In this document: in pieces, positions 11,262-14,862 of the stretch
Layout: each line of letters opens with the position of its first letter
Numbering within the stretch: position 1 is the stretch's first letter
Assembly: GCF_054482595.1 (NCBI RefSeq)
Contig: NZ_CM137008.1
Reading direction: 5' to 3' (one strand)
DNA length: 64,000 nucleotides
Program-made: the position numbers and the translations under genes
The notes under the pieces: generated by a model
Told to the model about the DNA's origin: nothing
Seen by the model: only the letters and a program-made list of their open reading frames with translations
The model's database searches: none

Positions 11262-12123
11262 AACCACAAAGCTTGCGACGTCATTAATCGATGAGTACGC
11301 CCTGCTGGGCTGGCGCGCCATGCTGACTGAAGTCAATCTGTCACCGAAACCAGGCCTCGTGGATCGGATTAACTGCGGTGCGCATAAAGATATGGCGCTG
11401 GAAGATTTTCACCGCAGCGCGCTGGCGATTCAGGGCTGGTTACCCCGTTTCATTGAATTTGGTGCCTGTAGTGCAGAAATGGCACCGGAAGCGGTACTCC
11501 ACGGATTACGCCCAATTGGTATGGCTTGCGAAGGTGATATGTTCCGCGCCACTGCGGGCGTAAACACGCATAAAGGCAGCATTTTTTCTTTAGGGCTGCT
11601 ATGTGCGGCAATTGGCCGTTTGCTTCAGCTCAACCAGCCGGTAACGCCAACAACCGTATGTTCTACGGCGGCAAGTTTCTGCCGTGGCCTGACCGATCGT
11701 GAACTGCGTACCAATAATTCACAACTGACGGCAGGTCAACGGTTGTACCAGCAGCTAGGCCTTACCGGCGCACGCGGTGAAGCCGAAGCGGGTTATCCAC
11801 TGGTGATCAACCACGCCTTGCCGCATTACCTCACTCTGCTGGATCAGGGATTAGATCCTGAACTGGCATTGCTCGATACCTTGCTCCTACTGATGGCTAC
11901 CAACGGCGATACCAACGTTGCATCGCGCGGTGGCGAGGGGGGCCTGCGCTGGCTACAGCGCGAGGCGCAAACATTATTGCAAAAAGGGGGCATCCGAACC
12001 CTCGCCGATCTCGATTATCTCCGGCAGTTCGACAGGGAGTGTATCGAACGAAATCTCAGTCCAGGCGGCAGTGCCGATTTGCTAATTGTCACCTGGTTTT
12101 TAGCGTCCCTAACCGGGCGCTGA
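11236..12123 (+). CDS. citG: Triphosphoribosyl-dephospho-CoA synthase, 295 aa
   Basis: [26 protein letters not shown]... is E. coli CitG. The C-terminus ends [13 protein letters not shown], whereas I recall LILTWFLAQI* in K-12. It overlaps citX by 26 nt, as in the native operon. Confidence 0.9.
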
Positions 12124-12148
12124 ATCATTAATATATCCGGAGTTAACT

Positions 12149-14746
12149 ATGTTAAAAGAATACCGTAAGCATGTAGCTGAGCGTGCCGCTGAGGGGATTG
12201 CGCCCAAACCCCTGGATGCAAACCAAATGGCCGCGCTTGTAGAGCTGCTGAAAAACCCGCCCGCGGGCGAAGAAGAATTCCTGTTAGATCTGTTAACCAA
12301 CCGTGTTCCCCCTGGCGTTGATGAAGCCGCCTATGTCAAAGCAGGCTTCCTGGCTGCTGTCGCCAAAGGTGAAGCCAAATCCCCACTGCTGACACCGGAA
12401 AAGGCCATCGAACTGCTGGGCACCATGCAGGGTGGTTACAACATTCATCCGCTGATCGACGCGCTGGATGATGCCAAACTGGCACCGATCGCTGCCAAAG
12501 CACTTTCTCACACGCTGCTGATGTTCGATAACTTCTATGACGTAGAAGAGAAAGCCAAAGCAGGCAACGAATATGCGAAGCAGGTAATGCAGTCCTGGGC
12601 GGATGCCGAATGGTTCCTGAATCGCCCGGCGCTGGCTGAAAAACTGACCGTTACCGTCTTCAAAGTCACTGGCGAAACCAACACCGATGACCTCTCTCCG
12701 GCACCGGATGCGTGGTCACGCCCGGATATCCCACTGCACGCGCTGGCGATGCTGAAAAACGCCCGTGAAGGCATCGAGCCAGATCAGCCTGGTGTTGTTG
12801 GCCCGATCAAACAGATTGAAGCTCTGCAACAGAAAGGTTTCCCGCTGGCGTACGTCGGTGACGTTGTGGGTACGGGGTCATCGCGTAAATCCGCCACGAA
12901 CTCCGTTCTGTGGTTTATGGGCGATGATATTCCACATGTGCCGAACAAACGCGGCGGTGGTTTGTGCCTCGGCGGTAAAATTGCACCCATCTTCTTTAAC
13001 ACGATGGAAGATGCGGGTGCACTGCCAATCGAAGTCGACGTCTCTAACCTGAACATGGGCGACGTAATTGACGTTTACCCGTACAAAGGTGAAGTGCGTA
13101 ACCACGAAACCGGCGAACTGCTGGCAACCTTCGAACTGAAAACCGACGTGCTGATTGATGAAGTGCGTGCTGGCGGCCGTATTCCGCTGATTATCGGGCG
13201 TGGCCTGACCACCAAAGCGCGTGAAGCACTTGGCCTGCCGCACAGTGATGTGTTCCGTCAGGCGAAAGATGTCGCTGAGAGCGATCGCGGCTTCTCGCTG
13301 GCGCAGAAAATGGTAGGTCGTGCCTGCGGTGTGAAAGGCATTCGTCCGGGCGCGTACTGCGAACCGAAAATGACTTCTGTAGGTTCACAGGACACCACCG
13401 GCCCGATGACCCGTGATGAACTGAAAGACCTGGCGTGCCTGGGCTTCTCGGCTGACCTGGTGATGCAGTCTTTCTGCCACACCGCGGCGTATCCGAAACC
13501 AGTTGACGTGAATACGCACCACACGCTGCCGGACTTCATTATGAACCGTGGCGGTGTGTCGCTGCGTCCGGGTGACGGCGTAATCCACTCCTGGCTGAAC
13601 CGTATGCTGCTGCCGGATACCGTCGGTACCGGTGGTGATTCCCATACCCGTTTCCCGATCGGCATTTCTTTCCCGGCAGGCTCCGGTCTGGTGGCATTTG
13701 CTGCTGCAACTGGCGTCATGCCGCTGGATATGCCGGAATCCGTTCTGGTGCGCTTCAAAGGCAAAATGCAGCCGGGCATCACCCTGCGCGATTTGGTACA
13801 CGCTATTCCGCTGTATGCGATCAAACAAGGTCTGCTGACCGTTGAGAAGAAAGGCAAGAAAAACATCTTCTCTGGCCGCATCCTGGAAATTGAAGGTCTG
13901 CCGGATCTGAAAGTTGAGCAGGCCTTTGAGCTGACCGATGCGTCCGCCGAGCGTTCTGCTGCCGGTTGTACCATCAAGCTGAACAAAGAACCGATCATCG
14001 AATACCTGAACTCCAACATCGTCCTGCTGAAGTGGATGATCGCGGAAGGTTACGGCGATCATCGTACCCTGGAACGCCGTATTCAGGGCATGGAAAAATG
14101 GCTGGCGAATCCTGAGCTGCTGGAAGCCGATGCAGATGCGGAATACGCGGCAGTGATCGACATCGATCTGGCGGATATCAAAGAGCCAATCCTCTGTGCT
14201 CCGAACGACCCGGATGACGCGCGTCCGCTGTCTGCGGTACAGGGCGAGAAGATCGACGAAGTGTTTATCGGTTCCTGCATGACCAACATCGGTCACTTCC
14301 GTGCTGCGGGTAAACTGCTGGATGCGCATAAAGGCCAGCTGCCGACCCGCCTGTGGGTGGCACCGCCAACCCGTATGGACGCCGCGCAGTTGACCGAAGA
14401 AGGCTACTACAGCGTCTTCGGTAAGAGTGGTGCGCGTATCGAGATCCCTGGCTGTTCCCTGTGTATGGGTAACCAGGCGCGTGTAGCAGACGGTGCGACG
14501 GTGGTTTCCACCTCTACCCGTAACTTTCCGAACCGTTTGGGTACTGGCGCGAATGTCTTCCTGGCTTCTGCGGAACTGGCCGCTGTTGCGGCGCTGATTG
14601 GCAAACTGCCGACGCCGGAAGAGTACCAGACCTACGTGGCGCAGGTAGATAAAACCGCCGTTGATACTTACCGTTATCTGAACTTCAACCAGCTTTCTCA
14701 GTATACCGAGAAAGCGGATAGGGTGATTTTTCCTAGTGTGGTTTAA
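12149..14746 (+). CDS. acnB: Aconitate hydratase B (bifunctional aconitase / 2-methylisocitrate dehydratase), full length 865 aa
   Basis: It is collinear with E. coli AcnB over the entire length, with a few substitutions (MLKEY versus MLEEY; tail [12 protein letters not shown] versus remembered EKADGVIFQTAV*). The three Fe-S cysteine regions are present ([26 protein letters not shown]). GGAG lies 8 nt upstream, and the start is 25 bp after the citG stop. Confidence 0.92.
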
Positions 14747-14754
14747 GAAGTCAG

Positions 14755-14862
14755 TGTGCTGCGTATAAAAAGCTAATACCAGGCTGCCTGTCATATCGAT
14801 TTCATGCAGGATAAGTAGAACTCCGTCTAATCTAGACGGAGTTCTATTGTATTGATGGCTTT
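14755..14862 (+). mobile_element. IS66-family left end (IR plus leader up to the tnpA start codon), truncated
   Basis: It aligns with the reverse complement of 26003-26088: ...GCCTGCCTGTCATATCGATTTCATGCAGGATAAGTAGAACTCCGTCTAATCTAGACGGAGTTCTATTGTATTGATGG versus ...GCCGTCTGTAACACCTGATCCTTGCAGACTAAATTAGAGCTCCTTCTAAATTAGACGGAGTTCTATTGATGG. It begins 8 nt after the acnB stop and ends where the next IS66 end begins. Confidence 0.6.
14816..14846. repeat. Perfect 14-bp-arm palindrome in the IS66 leader (first copy)
   Basis: TAGAACTCCGTCTA-ATC-TAGACGGAGTTCTA. A second, imperfect copy lies at 26007-26037 in the equivalent leader position of the other IS66 piece. Confidence 0.85.

What the first reader, a model, noticed from the sequence alone, without database searches (positions are those of the whole stretch)
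12095..14765. A complete aconitase B gene inside a tRNA-linked island, replacing citT, with both termini remodelled and an IS66 end 8 nt after its stop
Seen in sequence: the CitG tail (..[13 protein letters not shown]) diverges from the remembered K-12 tail (..LILTWFLAQI*) only in the last few codons. Then 25 bp later (ATCATTAATATATCCGGAGTTAACT) a full 865-aa AcnB starts. AcnB differs from the remembered K-12 protein mainly at residue 3 and in the last eight residues (DRVIFPSVV versus DGVIFQTAV). An IS66-family terminal repeat starts at 14755. Established: acnB is a core TCA / methylcitrate-cycle gene and also an iron-responsive RNA-binding protein, and it is not normally island-borne. Inference: either this strain has two acnB (and two cit) loci, which makes this a dedicated paralogue set, or the core copies have moved into the island. 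Either case is unusual.
Basis: partly seen in the sequence, partly recalled or inferred. Interest (0 to 1): 0.6.

Follow-up and report, generated by a model that had tools for sequence, protein, structure and literature searches.

The report
Second aconitase B in lactonase–citrate-lyase operon
A rare E. coli genomic island carries a complete spare set of citrate-lyase genes and a spare aconitase B as the last genes of a conserved, uncharacterised nutrient-breakdown operon, and recombination with E. coli-type versions of the core genes keeps these spares almost identical to them.

Summary
The core observation is real. citG stops at 12123, a 25-nt spacer with a GGAG ribosome-binding site follows, and an intact 865-aa acnB runs 12149-14746. 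It is not a misassembly: 34 of 5,426 complete E. coli genomes have the same junction. Strain Santai, nearly identical to the window, keeps both native loci (yacH-acnB-yacL and citCDEFXG-citT-dpiBA). Two other carriers keep native acnB.

acnB is the last gene of a 9-gene operon: an LigI-like lactonase, an MFS transporter, citCDEFXG and acnB. A divergent GntR regulator sits upstream. The same citG-acnB junction occurs in an Enterobacter operon. Equivalent operons occur in Salmonella salamae, Citrobacter amalonaticus and Klebsiella oxytoca.

The "remodelled termini" are old operon-type ends. The gene interiors are 96-98% identical to native E. coli genes and mosaic. The operon-only genes differ 5-8 times less between island variants. 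This indicates recurrent recombination with native-type alleles.

The IS66-family end lies at 14872, 125 nt after the stop, not 8 nt.

Inferred function: uptake and hydrolysis of a tricarboxylate lactone (best guess isocitrate lactone), then AcnB to citrate, then citrate lyase. The substrate is untested.

The parts
3860..4585 (-). GntR/HutC-type regulator (GntR HTH + UTRA effector domain), divergently transcribed from the operon
   Evidence: Pfam PF00392 and PF07702. Annotated as a GntR family regulator in Santai. An orthologous regulator sits in the same position in every related enterobacterial locus.
4609..4622 (.). Candidate operator GTTGCATAGTCAAC in the gntR-lactonase intergenic region
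   Evidence: The motif is conserved in the intergenic regions of the E. coli, Enterobacter, S. salamae, C. amalonaticus and K. oxytoca operons. It is duplicated in the last three (sequence). Binding is inferred, not tested.
4708..5505 (+). LigI-like amidohydrolase-2 (COG3618-type lactonase), 265 aa, first gene of the operon
   Evidence: PF04909 scores 150.8 bits. The closest solved relatives are 2ffi and 4i6k, both of unknown function, then LigI 4d8l. The LigI catalytic residues His31/His33/His180/Asp248 are conserved. The substrate-binding residues Arg130 and Tyr156 are not.
5537..6886 (+). MFS organic-anion permease, 449 aa
   Evidence: PF07690. Weak NCBIfam hits to the PgtP and D-galactonate transporter subfamilies. 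The related S. salamae, C. amalonaticus and K. oxytoca operons (and the E. fergusonii lactonase-transporter module) carry a CitMHS carrier in this position instead.
6892..12123 (+). citC (6892-7947), citD (7962-8258), citE (8255-9163), citF (9174-10706), citX (10710-11261), citG (11236-12123): a complete second citrate-lyase set
   Evidence: NCBIfam equivalogs for CitC and CitG score above cut-off. Positions 6898-12104 are 97.9-98.0% identical, without gaps, to native K-12 and Santai citC-citG. Island-specific fixed sites cluster in the first 27 nt of citC and the last 46 nt of citG.
12124..12148 (+). citG-acnB spacer with GGAG Shine-Dalgarno
   Evidence: Sequence. The spacer is homologous to the Enterobacter operon spacer (..GGAGTTAAT TGTG TTA AAA..). 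No terminator-like site was found between the two genes.
12149..14746 (+). acnB paralogue, 865 aa, intact, last gene of the operon
   Evidence: TIGR00117 scores 1716 bits against a cut-off of 1287. It is 96.3% nt and 99.1% aa identical to native acnB of the same strain. It shows mosaic site patterns with conserved island-specific termini.
14814..14848 (+). 16-bp stem-loop downstream of acnB; candidate operon terminator
   Evidence: The RNA fold of 14747-14870 gives -40.9 kcal/mol and z = -4.3, with 0 of 200 shuffles as stable. The simple terminator scan did not flag it. The loop is inverted in two other island variants.
14872..14952 (.). 81-nt terminal fragment of an ISEc22-like IS66-family element (IR GTAAGTGT...)
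   Evidence: It aligns from the first base of the right end of an annotated ISEc22 copy. The pattern is unique in the window.
14953..15570 (-). End of an ISCro1-like IS66 element (IR GTAAGCGGCTCG...) with a truncated tnpC
   Evidence: Multicopy IS66 matches start at 14950-14954. PGAP annotates a tnpC pseudogene at window 14984-15570. The same sequence, inverted, flanks the left side of the module in strain ES1.
58163..59701 (-). Island integrase (58163-59428) and tRNA-Phe pheV (59626-59701): the attachment end of the island
   Evidence: ARAGORN. Integrase domain NF007246. The flanking speC and nupG, with the ORF at the yqgA position between pheV and speC that matched no family, identify pheV.

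Best explanation
The acnB at 12149-14746 is a functional second aconitase B. It is co-transcribed as the last gene of an accessory catabolic operon: lactonase, MFS permease, citCDEFXG, acnB. A divergent GntR-type repressor controls the operon. The roughly 11-kb module is bounded by IS66-family ends and lies in a pheV island.

Proposed mechanism (inferred):
1. The permease imports a lactone of a tricarboxylic acid. The best guess is isocitrate gamma-lactone.
2. The LigI-like lactonase opens the lactone to isocitrate.
3. AcnB converts isocitrate through cis-aconitate to citrate.
4. Citrate lyase splits citrate into acetate and oxaloacetate. Related operons add oxaloacetate decarboxylase.

Why the operon would carry its own copies (inferred from remembered regulation, see full report): the native citrate-lyase genes are switched on by a sensor of external citrate, and native acnB is reduced anaerobically. 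Neither would respond to citrate made inside the cell.

Evolution (shown by comparison): the operon and its citG-acnB junction are old and shared with other Enterobacteriaceae. In E. coli the interiors of its cit and acnB genes have been repeatedly overwritten by native-type E. coli alleles through gene conversion or homologous recombination. Only the extreme gene ends keep the old operon-type sequence. This explains both the near-identity to the core genes and the odd termini.
For: **Two copies**
- Native acnB is present and the native cit locus is present. The junction probe gives 3 places per carrier.

**Real and recurrent**
- 34 of 5,426 complete genomes have the junction.

**Operon structure**
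- Intergenic gaps are 31 nt or less and there is a GGAG site before acnB.
- No terminator-like site lies between citG and acnB. A hairpin follows acnB.

**Conserved association**
- The Enterobacter operon aligns at 79% nt from gntR through the spacer into the first 147 nt of acnB.
- S. salamae and C. amalonaticus have GntR | lactonase-CitMHS-citCDEF(X)G-acnB-oadGA (the loci end inside oadA).
- K. oxytoca has a 73%-identical AcnB paralogue next to GntR | lactonase-CitMHS-citCDEFG-oadGAB.
- Two other enterobacterial contigs place gntR-lactonase-MFS directly beside the native acnB-yacL locus.
- A Pseudomonas and a Paraburkholderia genome have only regulator-MFS-lactonase. This fits a product that is already a central metabolite.
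- An operator-like motif is conserved in five operons.

**Lactonase chemistry**
- The LigI catalytic residues are conserved.

**Recombination**
- Between three island variants the operon-only genes differ by 0.27-0.37%. The cit and acnB genes differ by 1.2-2.4% (Fisher p = 7e-7 to 2e-15).
- 38 of the 39 ES1-versus-window acnB differences fall in nt 171-840 (p about 1e-21).
- The 21AR0173 island allele is native-like in nt 1158-1656 and 2238-2508.
- All island alleles share the first 4 and last 12 island-specific sites of acnB, the first 27 nt of citC and the last 46 nt of citG.
- The citC 5' end and the citG tail resemble the Enterobacter operon, not native E. coli.
Against: - The substrate is a deduction from gene content and is untested. 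No paper in the searchable library describes such a lactonase or pathway.
- The nearest solved relatives (2ffi, 4i6k) have no assigned function.
- In the three genomes examined, no island tract is identical to the native acnB of the same genome. The 21AR0173 tract at nt 2201-2400 matches a Santai-type native allele with 1 difference but its own native copy with 14. The ES1 patch at nt 601-850 is about 10% from every E. coli allele. Exchange in the present host is therefore not shown. It may have happened in earlier hosts or during transfer.
- The Enterobacter operon has lost acnB, which is truncated with an in-frame stop. AcnB-in-operon is therefore dispensable at least where a native copy can serve.
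- Co-transcription and regulation are inferred from spacing only.
Confidence: 0.6

Rival explanations
1. Same operon and same evolutionary history, but the substrate is a different lactone. Candidates are a hydroxycitrate lactone (garcinia or hibiscus acid), homocitrate or 2-methylisocitrate lactone, or 2-pyrone-4,6-dicarboxylate. AcnB and citrate lyase would then act on the ring-opened product or its derivatives.
For: The enzyme belongs to the LigI and 4-sulfomuconolactonase clade, whose known substrates are carboxylated lactones that open to tricarboxylates. The K. oxytoca and E. fergusonii loci sit beside further aconitase-family, PrpF, Iso_dh and PF10282-lactonase genes. This suggests a broader tricarboxylate-derivative repertoire.
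Against: The island AcnB is 99% identical to the native enzyme (7 residue differences besides the start codon) and the island citrate-lyase proteins are 98-100% identical. Both recombine freely with native-type alleles. Their specificities should therefore be the canonical ones: citrate, cis-aconitate and isocitrate for AcnB, and citrate for the lyase. The LigI PDC-binding residues Arg130 and Tyr156 are replaced, which argues against PDC.
Confidence: 0.25
2. A recent E. coli-internal duplication. Native citCDEFXG and acnB were copied into the island by IS-mediated or illegitimate recombination and fused. The 2-4% divergence is simply the age of the duplication, and the odd termini are junction scars.
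For: The island genes are 96-98% identical to native genes, and the homology is almost exactly bounded by the coding sequences. IS66-family remnants flank the module.
Against: - The MFS-citC junction (including a missing GGC codon), the citG tail, the spacer and the first acnB codons (TTA AAA) are shared with an Enterobacter operon. That operon's unique genes are only 72-81% identical. The junctions therefore predate any 2-4% event.
- The same gene order exists in Salmonella and Citrobacter.
- Island alleles are mosaic and differ from each other as much as from native alleles, while neighbouring unique genes are nearly invariant.
Confidence: 0.05
3. Decaying cargo. The cit and acnB copies are redundant passengers with no selected role, kept intact only because recombination with native-type alleles keeps repairing them.
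For: The Enterobacter operon has lost acnB. In one Enterobacter genome citC is not called. The module is rare, at 0.6% of genomes. Surrounding island genes are heavily pseudogenised.
Against: - All nine operon genes are intact in three diverged island variants.
- The operon-specific termini and the tight gene spacing are conserved.
- The lactonase, citrate-lyase and AcnB combination recurs in four genera, with different transporters and with diverged AcnB (73-94% aa) that conversion alone cannot be maintaining.
Confidence: 0.08
4. Assembly artefact joining citG to acnB.
For: None found.
Against: An identical junction is present in 34 independently assembled complete genomes. Each also holds the native loci.
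Confidence: 0.01

Closest known systems
E. coli native citrate-fermentation locus citCDEFXG-citT with dpiBA (citAB)
   Same: The same six citrate-lyase genes in the same order, 97.9% nt identical over 5,207 bp.
   Different: citT is replaced by acnB. The two-component regulator is replaced by a divergent GntR. A lactonase and an MFS permease precede citC. The first 27 nt of citC and the last 46 nt of citG are of a different, operon-specific type.
Klebsiella-type citrate fermentation clusters (citCDEFG with citS-oadGAB; Chen et al. 2009, PMC2735749 appeared)
   Same: Citrate lyase is coupled to oxaloacetate decarboxylase in the S. salamae, C. amalonaticus and K. oxytoca relatives of this operon.
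   Different: Those relatives, like the E. coli module, start with a lactonase and a different carrier and include an AcnB. The classical cluster has neither, as recalled from memory. The E. coli module has no oad genes.
LigI (2-pyrone-4,6-dicarboxylate lactonase) and 4-sulfomuconolactone hydrolase, amidohydrolase COG3618
   Same: The Amidohydro_2 fold. The catalytic His31/His33/His180/Asp248 are conserved in the alignment.
   Different: The match to LigI is weak (88.8 bits, E = 4.5e-24). Arg130 and Tyr156 are replaced. The score is below the NCBIfam equivalog cut-off (137 against 500 bits). The genomic context is citrate lyase and aconitase, not an aromatic-ring cleavage pathway.
Native AcnB (yacH-acnB-yacL locus)
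   Same: 99.1% aa identity, the same three domains, and the same Fe-S ligand motifs.
   Different: Different promoter and operon context, an ATG instead of a GTG start, K3, and a different C-terminal octapeptide (DRVIFPSVV).
Concerted evolution of duplicated bacterial genes by gene conversion (for example tufA/tufB and rRNA operons; recalled from memory)
   Same: Paralogues are kept nearly identical in their interiors, with divergence confined to the edges of homology. Tracts are mosaic.
   Different: Here one partner is an island-borne operon copy and the other a core gene. Two unlinked core loci (cit and acnB) feed the same operon. The tracts seen derive from native-type alleles of other lineages, not demonstrably from the current host.

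Membership tests
Aconitate hydratase B (AcnB) | Scores above the curated cut-off of the AcnB equivalog model | tested here: met
   TIGR00117 scores 1716.2 bits against a cut-off of 1287.2. NF006690 scores 1574.9 against 782.
Aconitate hydratase B (AcnB) | Three-part architecture: Aconitase_B_N, Aconitase_2_N (swivel) and aconitase catalytic domain | tested here: met
   PF11791 at residues 4-156, PF06434 at 168-382, PF00330 at 472-818.
Aconitate hydratase B (AcnB) | Fe-S cluster cysteine motifs (GSCMTN and PGCSLCMGN) | tested here: met
   Both motifs are present in the translation. Residue numbering is inferred from equal length with the native protein.
Aconitate hydratase B (AcnB) | Catalyses citrate/isocitrate interconversion | not testable with these tools
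   Needs an enzyme assay. It is expected from the 99.1% identity to the native enzyme.
Citrate lyase gene set citCDEFXG | All six genes present, intact and in canonical order | tested here: met
   ORFs, PGAP names and CitC and CitG equivalogs above cut-off. The alignment to K-12 is ungapped at 97.9%.
E. coli citrate-fermentation locus (cit genes + CitT antiporter + DpiBA sensor) | citT downstream of citG and dpiBA upstream of citC | tested here: not met
   acnB follows citG, and the MFS, lactonase and GntR genes precede citC. The island module is therefore not a copy of the whole native locus.
LigI-like lactonases (amidohydrolase-2, COG3618) | Amidohydro_2 domain above the gathering score | tested here: met
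   PF04909 scores 150.8 bits against 26.4.
LigI-like lactonases (amidohydrolase-2, COG3618) | Catalytic residues His31, His33, His180, Asp248 (LigI numbering) | tested here: met
   In the phmmer alignment to 4d8l, the query motifs DTHAH, VDHF and GSDWPH align to IDAHCH, IDHM and GTDWPH. The roles of these residues are recalled from the LigI literature.
LigI proper (2-pyrone-4,6-dicarboxylate hydrolase) | Substrate-binding Arg130 and Tyr156; close sequence relationship | tested here: not met
   Arg130 aligns to Val and Tyr156 aligns to His. The score is only 88.8 bits.
4-sulfomuconolactone hydrolase (NF042924) | Score above the equivalog cut-off | tested here: not met
   136.8 bits against a cut-off of 500.
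IS66-family element abutting acnB | Terminal inverted repeat (GTAAGCG-type) at 14755, 8 nt after the stop | tested here: not met
   No IS66 similarity is found before 14871. IRs are at 14872 and 14953.
tRNA-linked genomic island | Tyrosine integrase next to a tRNA gene, with the island on the 3' side of the tRNA | tested here: met
   tRNA-Phe at 59626-59701(-). Integrase at 58163-59428(-) with core genes speC and nupG beyond.
tRNA-linked genomic island | Direct repeat of the tRNA 3' end at the distal island border | not tested
   The distal border lies outside the window; position 1 is still island DNA.
IS-bounded composite transposon | Two copies of one IS bracketing the cargo | tested here: inconclusive
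   In ES1, 75-nt IS66 ends that are 99% complementary bracket the module. In the window only the right side is IS66, and the left side is ISEc38 and other DNA. Target-site duplications were not examined.
Concerted evolution by gene conversion | Mosaic tracts, and excess variation confined to the segments that have a paralogue | tested here: met
   (Fisher p as low as 2e-15; clustering p about 1e-21).
Concerted evolution by gene conversion | A tract identical to the paralogue in the same genome (intragenomic donor) | tested here: inconclusive
   Not seen for acnB in Santai, ES1 or 21AR0173. Some tracts match native alleles of other lineages. The cit genes were compared with their own native copy only in Santai.

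The most novel reading that the evidence does not exclude
Enterobacteriaceae possess a previously uncharacterised fermentation pathway for isocitrate lactone or a closely related tricarboxylate lactone. This compound is reported in metabolomic surveys of plants, wine, urine and faeces. The pathway is encoded by a mobile lactonase-permease-citrate-lyase-aconitase operon. In E. coli its enzyme genes are held interchangeable with the core TCA and citrate genes by ongoing gene conversion. They would act as regulatory paralogues: the same enzymes under a different switch.
Probability: 0.35. Interest if true: 0.6.

Novelty: new variant of a known kind. Interest (0 to 1): 0.5.

Why it matters
Three things follow if this is right.

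- **A testable function.** It assigns a concrete, testable role to a conserved but unannotated enterobacterial operon and to the 2ffi/4i6k-type branch of LigI-like lactonases. It predicts a new substrate for anaerobic growth of some E. coli, Salmonella, Citrobacter and Klebsiella strains.
- **A rationale for duplicated housekeeping enzymes.** A mobile operon may need its own copies because the native copies answer to the wrong signals.
- **A clean natural example of concerted evolution.** Sequence flows between core genes and island-borne paralogues at two unlinked loci, leaving unconverted termini. This is a practical warning for typing and phylogeny. acnB and cit alleles in carrier strains can be mis-assigned, and reads can be mis-mapped between copies.

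Tried and rejected
- **Misassembly or relocation of the core genes.** Rejected. The native loci were found by walking the Santai, ES1 and 21AR0173 chromosomes.
- **Plasmid carriage.** No PLSDB record holds the module. All hits are native cit or acnB on chromosome-sized "plasmid" records.
- **Species-representative scan with the lactonase (genome contigs).** It returned only two distant loci, because the pattern method needs near-identical peptides. 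Contexts were obtained from the search for homologous proteins plus look-up of encoding contigs instead.
- **Literature.** Seven searches were run: on hydroxycitrate, lactonase and citrate lyase; on acnB and genomic islands; two on isocitrate lactone; on pheU/pheV islands; on the PDB codes 4I6K and 2FFI; and on ybhJ/ybhH. None found a description of this operon or enzyme. Isocitric lactone appears only as a metabolite in metabolomics papers.
- **ES1's divergent acnB patch as a copy of ES1's own native acnB.** Rejected, with 24 differences in 250 nt. The patch is also no closer to the Salmonella or Citrobacter operon acnB.
- **A captured cit-dpi-dcuC block.** The island dcuC-like gene shows no nucleotide similarity to native dcuC.
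- **The simple terminator scan.** It did not flag the hairpin after acnB. Folding shows it is strong, but a terminator function remains unproven.
- **Remembered ligand in 4i6k.** I recall that PDB 4i6k was deposited with citrate bound. I could not verify this with the tools, so I do not use it as evidence.

Full report
**1. What is in the sequence**

- citG ends ..[14 protein letters not shown] with its stop at 12121-12123.
- The next 25 nt (ATCATTAATATATCCGGAGTTAACT) contain a GGAG six bases before an ATG at 12149.
- An uninterrupted 865-codon acnB follows and ends at 14746.
- The protein passes the AcnB equivalog model (1716 bits against a cut-off of 1287). It has the three AcnB domains and both Fe-S cysteine motifs.
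- Window 1-35337 differs by 3 bases from E. coli O157:H16 strain Santai, and 36106-59648 is 99.6% identical to it. I used that annotated genome as a guide.

**2. Two copies, not a moved copy or an artefact**

- Santai also has the native yacH-acnB-yacL locus and the complete native citCDEFXG-citT-dpiBA locus.
- Strains ES1 and 21AR0173, which carry variant islands, also keep native acnB.
- A 401-nt probe across the citG-acnB junction is fully covered in 34 of 5,426 complete E. coli genomes. A listed carrier (strain 746) gives 3 places, the maximum seen, consistent with island plus native acnB plus native citG.
- The acnB probe finds 5,464 places in 5,425 genomes.
- No plasmid in PLSDB carries the module.
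- The island copy differs from Santai's native acnB at 96 of 2,598 positions (96.3% identity). Only seven amino acids differ besides the start codon: K3E, V71I, H638R and four within the last eight residues.

**3. The unit is a nine-gene operon**

The layout upstream of citC is as follows.

| Feature | Coordinates | Strand |
|---|---|---|
| GntR/UTRA regulator | 3860-4585 | - |
| Amidohydro_2 protein, 265 aa | 4708-5505 | + |
| MFS anion permease | 5537-6886 | + |
| citC start (5 nt after the MFS stop) | 6892 | + |

- Every intergenic gap is 31 nt or less, or the genes overlap.
- The amidohydrolase is closest to two structural-genomics proteins of unknown function (2ffi, 4i6k), then to LigI.
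- In the alignment to LigI, the catalytic His31, His33, His180 and Asp248 are conserved. The PDC-binding Arg130 and Tyr156 are replaced by Val and His.
- It is therefore a LigI-like lactonase with a different substrate.

**4. The arrangement is conserved across genera**

| Source | Arrangement |
|---|---|
| Enterobacter sp. (lactonase 75% aa) | gntR \| lactonase-MFS-citCDEFXG; aligns to window 3866-12295 at 79% nt, through the citG tail, the spacer and the first 147 nt of acnB, where acnB is truncated with an in-frame stop |
| S. enterica subsp. salamae; C. amalonaticus | GntR \| lactonase-CitMHS-citCDEF(X)G-acnB(865 aa)-oadGA (loci end inside oadA) |
| K. oxytoca | GntR \| lactonase-CitMHS-citCDEFG-oadGAB beside a 73%-identical AcnB paralogue, plus PrpF, two more aconitase-family genes and an Iso_dh |
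| Two further enterobacterial contigs | gntR-lactonase-MFS immediately next to the native-type acnB-yacL locus |
| E. fergusonii | GntR \| lactonase-CitMHS only; aconitase-family genes (not AcnB-type) and PrpF lie a few kb away |
| One Pseudomonas and one Paraburkholderia genome | regulator, MFS and lactonase only |

- The E. coli and Enterobacter operons share the GGAGTTAA site and the codons TTA AAA (Lys3). Native acnB has CTA GAA there.
- A motif GTTGCATAGTCAAC is conserved in the gntR-lactonase intergenic region of five operons.
- In seven of the eight distinct enterobacterial arrangements examined, an AcnB gene or its remnant lies in or beside the lactonase module.

**5. Why the termini look "remodelled"**

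Against native E. coli genes:
- The cit block is 97.9-98.0% identical without gaps from 6898 to 12104.
- acnB is about 96% identical from 12150 to about 14769.

The ends are different:
- The first 27 nt of citC carry 11 island-specific sites and lack the native GGC codon, as the Enterobacter operon does.
- The last 46 nt of citG are unrelated to the native tail but resemble the Enterobacter tail.
- acnB has 4 island-specific sites in its first 24 nt and 12 in its last 37 nt.
- These termini are identical in all three island variants compared.

The interiors are not conserved between variants:

| Comparison between island variants | Value |
|---|---|
| gntR, intergenic, lactonase and MFS (2,996 nt) | 0.27-0.37% different |
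| cit and acnB (7,833 nt) | 1.2-2.4% different |
| Fisher test, unique versus paralogous segments | p = 7e-7 to 2e-15 |
| ES1 versus window acnB differences falling in nt 171-840 | 38 of 39 (p about 1e-21) |

- 21AR0173's island allele is native-like in nt 1158-1656 and 2238-2508.
- The operon-only genes are only 72-81% identical between E. coli and Enterobacter, yet the junctions are shared. Interiors that are 96-98% identical to native genes cannot reflect undisturbed descent.
- They must have been replaced by E. coli-type sequence, repeatedly, with the exchange stopping where homology runs out.

A caveat applies. No tract was identical to the native acnB of the same genome. One 21AR0173 tract matches a Santai-type native allele (1 difference) rather than its own (14 differences). 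ES1's patch at nt 601-850 is about 10% from all E. coli alleles. The exchanges may therefore have happened in earlier hosts, or during transfer between lineages. The ES1 patch may be a relic of the original allele or an import from another Escherichia lineage.

**6. Downstream of acnB**

| Coordinates | Content |
|---|---|
| to about 14769-14780 | weak residual homology to the native downstream region |
| 14755-14870 | found only in the 35 carrier genomes |
| 14814-14848 | 16-bp hairpin (z = -4.3) |
| 14872 | first IS66-family inverted repeat (GTAAGTGTACAGCG...), aligned to the right end of an annotated ISEc22 |
| 14953 | second IS66 end (GTAAGCGGCTCG..., ISCro1-like), followed by a truncated tnpC to 15570 |

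- In ES1 the same ISCro1-like end, inverted, also flanks the left side of the module. This gives a composite-transposon-like unit there.
- In the window the left flank is ISEc38 and other DNA.
- The module shared by all variants spans 3628 to about 14966.
An IS66 end nearby is correct.

**7. Mechanism (inferred)**

Three observations constrain the pathway.
- The island AcnB and citrate-lyase proteins are 98-100% identical to the native enzymes, so they should carry out the canonical reactions.
- The lactonase clade opens carboxylated lactones to tricarboxylates.
- The aerobes examined need only the transporter and the lactonase, which implies that the product is a central metabolite.

AcnB is needed before citrate lyase, so the simplest product is isocitrate. 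The proposed route is:

isocitrate lactone -> isocitrate -> cis-aconitate -> citrate -> acetate + oxaloacetate.

In other genera oxaloacetate would go on to pyruvate through OadGAB.

Isocitric lactone is reported in urine, plasma, plant and wine metabolomes (papers listed). No paper on its bacterial catabolism was found.

The rationale for dedicated copies rests on established regulation recalled from memory. CitA/DpiB senses periplasmic citrate, and acnB expression falls anaerobically. Citrate produced inside the cell would not induce the native genes.

**8. Novelty and score**

- Nothing here is a new kind of system. It is a variant citrate-fermentation operon with a lactonase front end and an aconitase back end.
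- The operon family appears uncharacterised, and the substrate prediction is directly testable.
- The core-to-island sequence homogenisation at two unlinked loci, with protected termini, is an unusually clear case.
- I rate interest at 0.5 and classify it as a new variant of a known kind.

Noticed in passing
window 14829-14833 (loop of the hairpin 14814-14848); L012 and L013 14681-14685: The centre of the hairpin after acnB reads TCTAATCTAGA in the window but TCTAGATTAGA in ES1 and 21AR0173. The loop is inverted while the stem is kept, as expected from template switching in a quasi-palindrome.
   Followed up: no
L012 12601-12850 (ES1 island acnB nt 601-850): This patch has 23-25 differences in 250 nt from every E. 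coli acnB allele examined, including ES1's own native copy. It is not closer to the Salmonella or Citrobacter operon acnB. It is either a relic of the original island allele or an import from another Escherichia lineage.
   Followed up: partly
L027 10001-16251 and L029 3-9351: In two other enterobacterial contigs the gntR-lactonase-MFS module sits directly beside the native-type acnB-yacL locus, upstream in L027 and downstream in L029. This is a possible evolutionary starting point for acnB joining the operon.
   Followed up: partly
L009/L010 1-8965 and L017 14448-20795: In K. oxytoca and E. fergusonii the lactonase module lies next to a further cluster of two aconitase-family genes and PrpF. 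K. oxytoca adds an Iso_dh. E. fergusonii adds a PF10282 lactonase and a second CitMHS carrier. This may be a larger tricarboxylate-derivative utilisation region.
   Followed up: no
window 26349-29996 (L001 35350-38997): Another small metabolic module in the island comprises an amidohydrolase, a dcuC-like transporter and a LysR regulator, flanked by IS66 remnants. The dcuC-like gene has no detectable nucleotide similarity to native dcuC.
   Followed up: partly
window 22187-24076: A gene annotated 'enterotoxin' (about 630 aa) follows a malX-like PTS gene and a MalY/PatB-like gene in the same island.
   Followed up: no
window 35338-36105 and 59649-64000: The window departs from strain Santai at a roughly 770-nt stretch. 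It departs again beyond 59648. There the window continues into pheV and the core genes yqgA, speC and nupG, whereas Santai continues into another CP4-like element with toxin-antitoxin genes. The source strain is therefore not Santai itself.
   Followed up: partly
window 3604-3640 versus L012/L013 3449-3490: Downstream of gntR, at the left edge of the shared module, the variants carry different hairpin-forming sequences at the same position: TATTACCATATGTGGTAATA versus GCCACCACCGGTGGC.
   Followed up: no
NZ_CP027437.1 2118056-2120646 (hit H113): The native acnB of strain 2012C-4221, which has no island copy, is 98.0% identical to the window's island allele. That is closer than the other native alleles listed in the top 60 hits (up to 97.5%). 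It could mark the donor lineage of some tracts, or sequence flow from island to core.
   Followed up: no
L013 14885-26598: In 21AR0173 the module is followed by IS100 and a complete lsr (autoinducer-2) operon. In ES1 it lies in yet another island context. The 11-kb module therefore travels between different islands.
   Followed up: no
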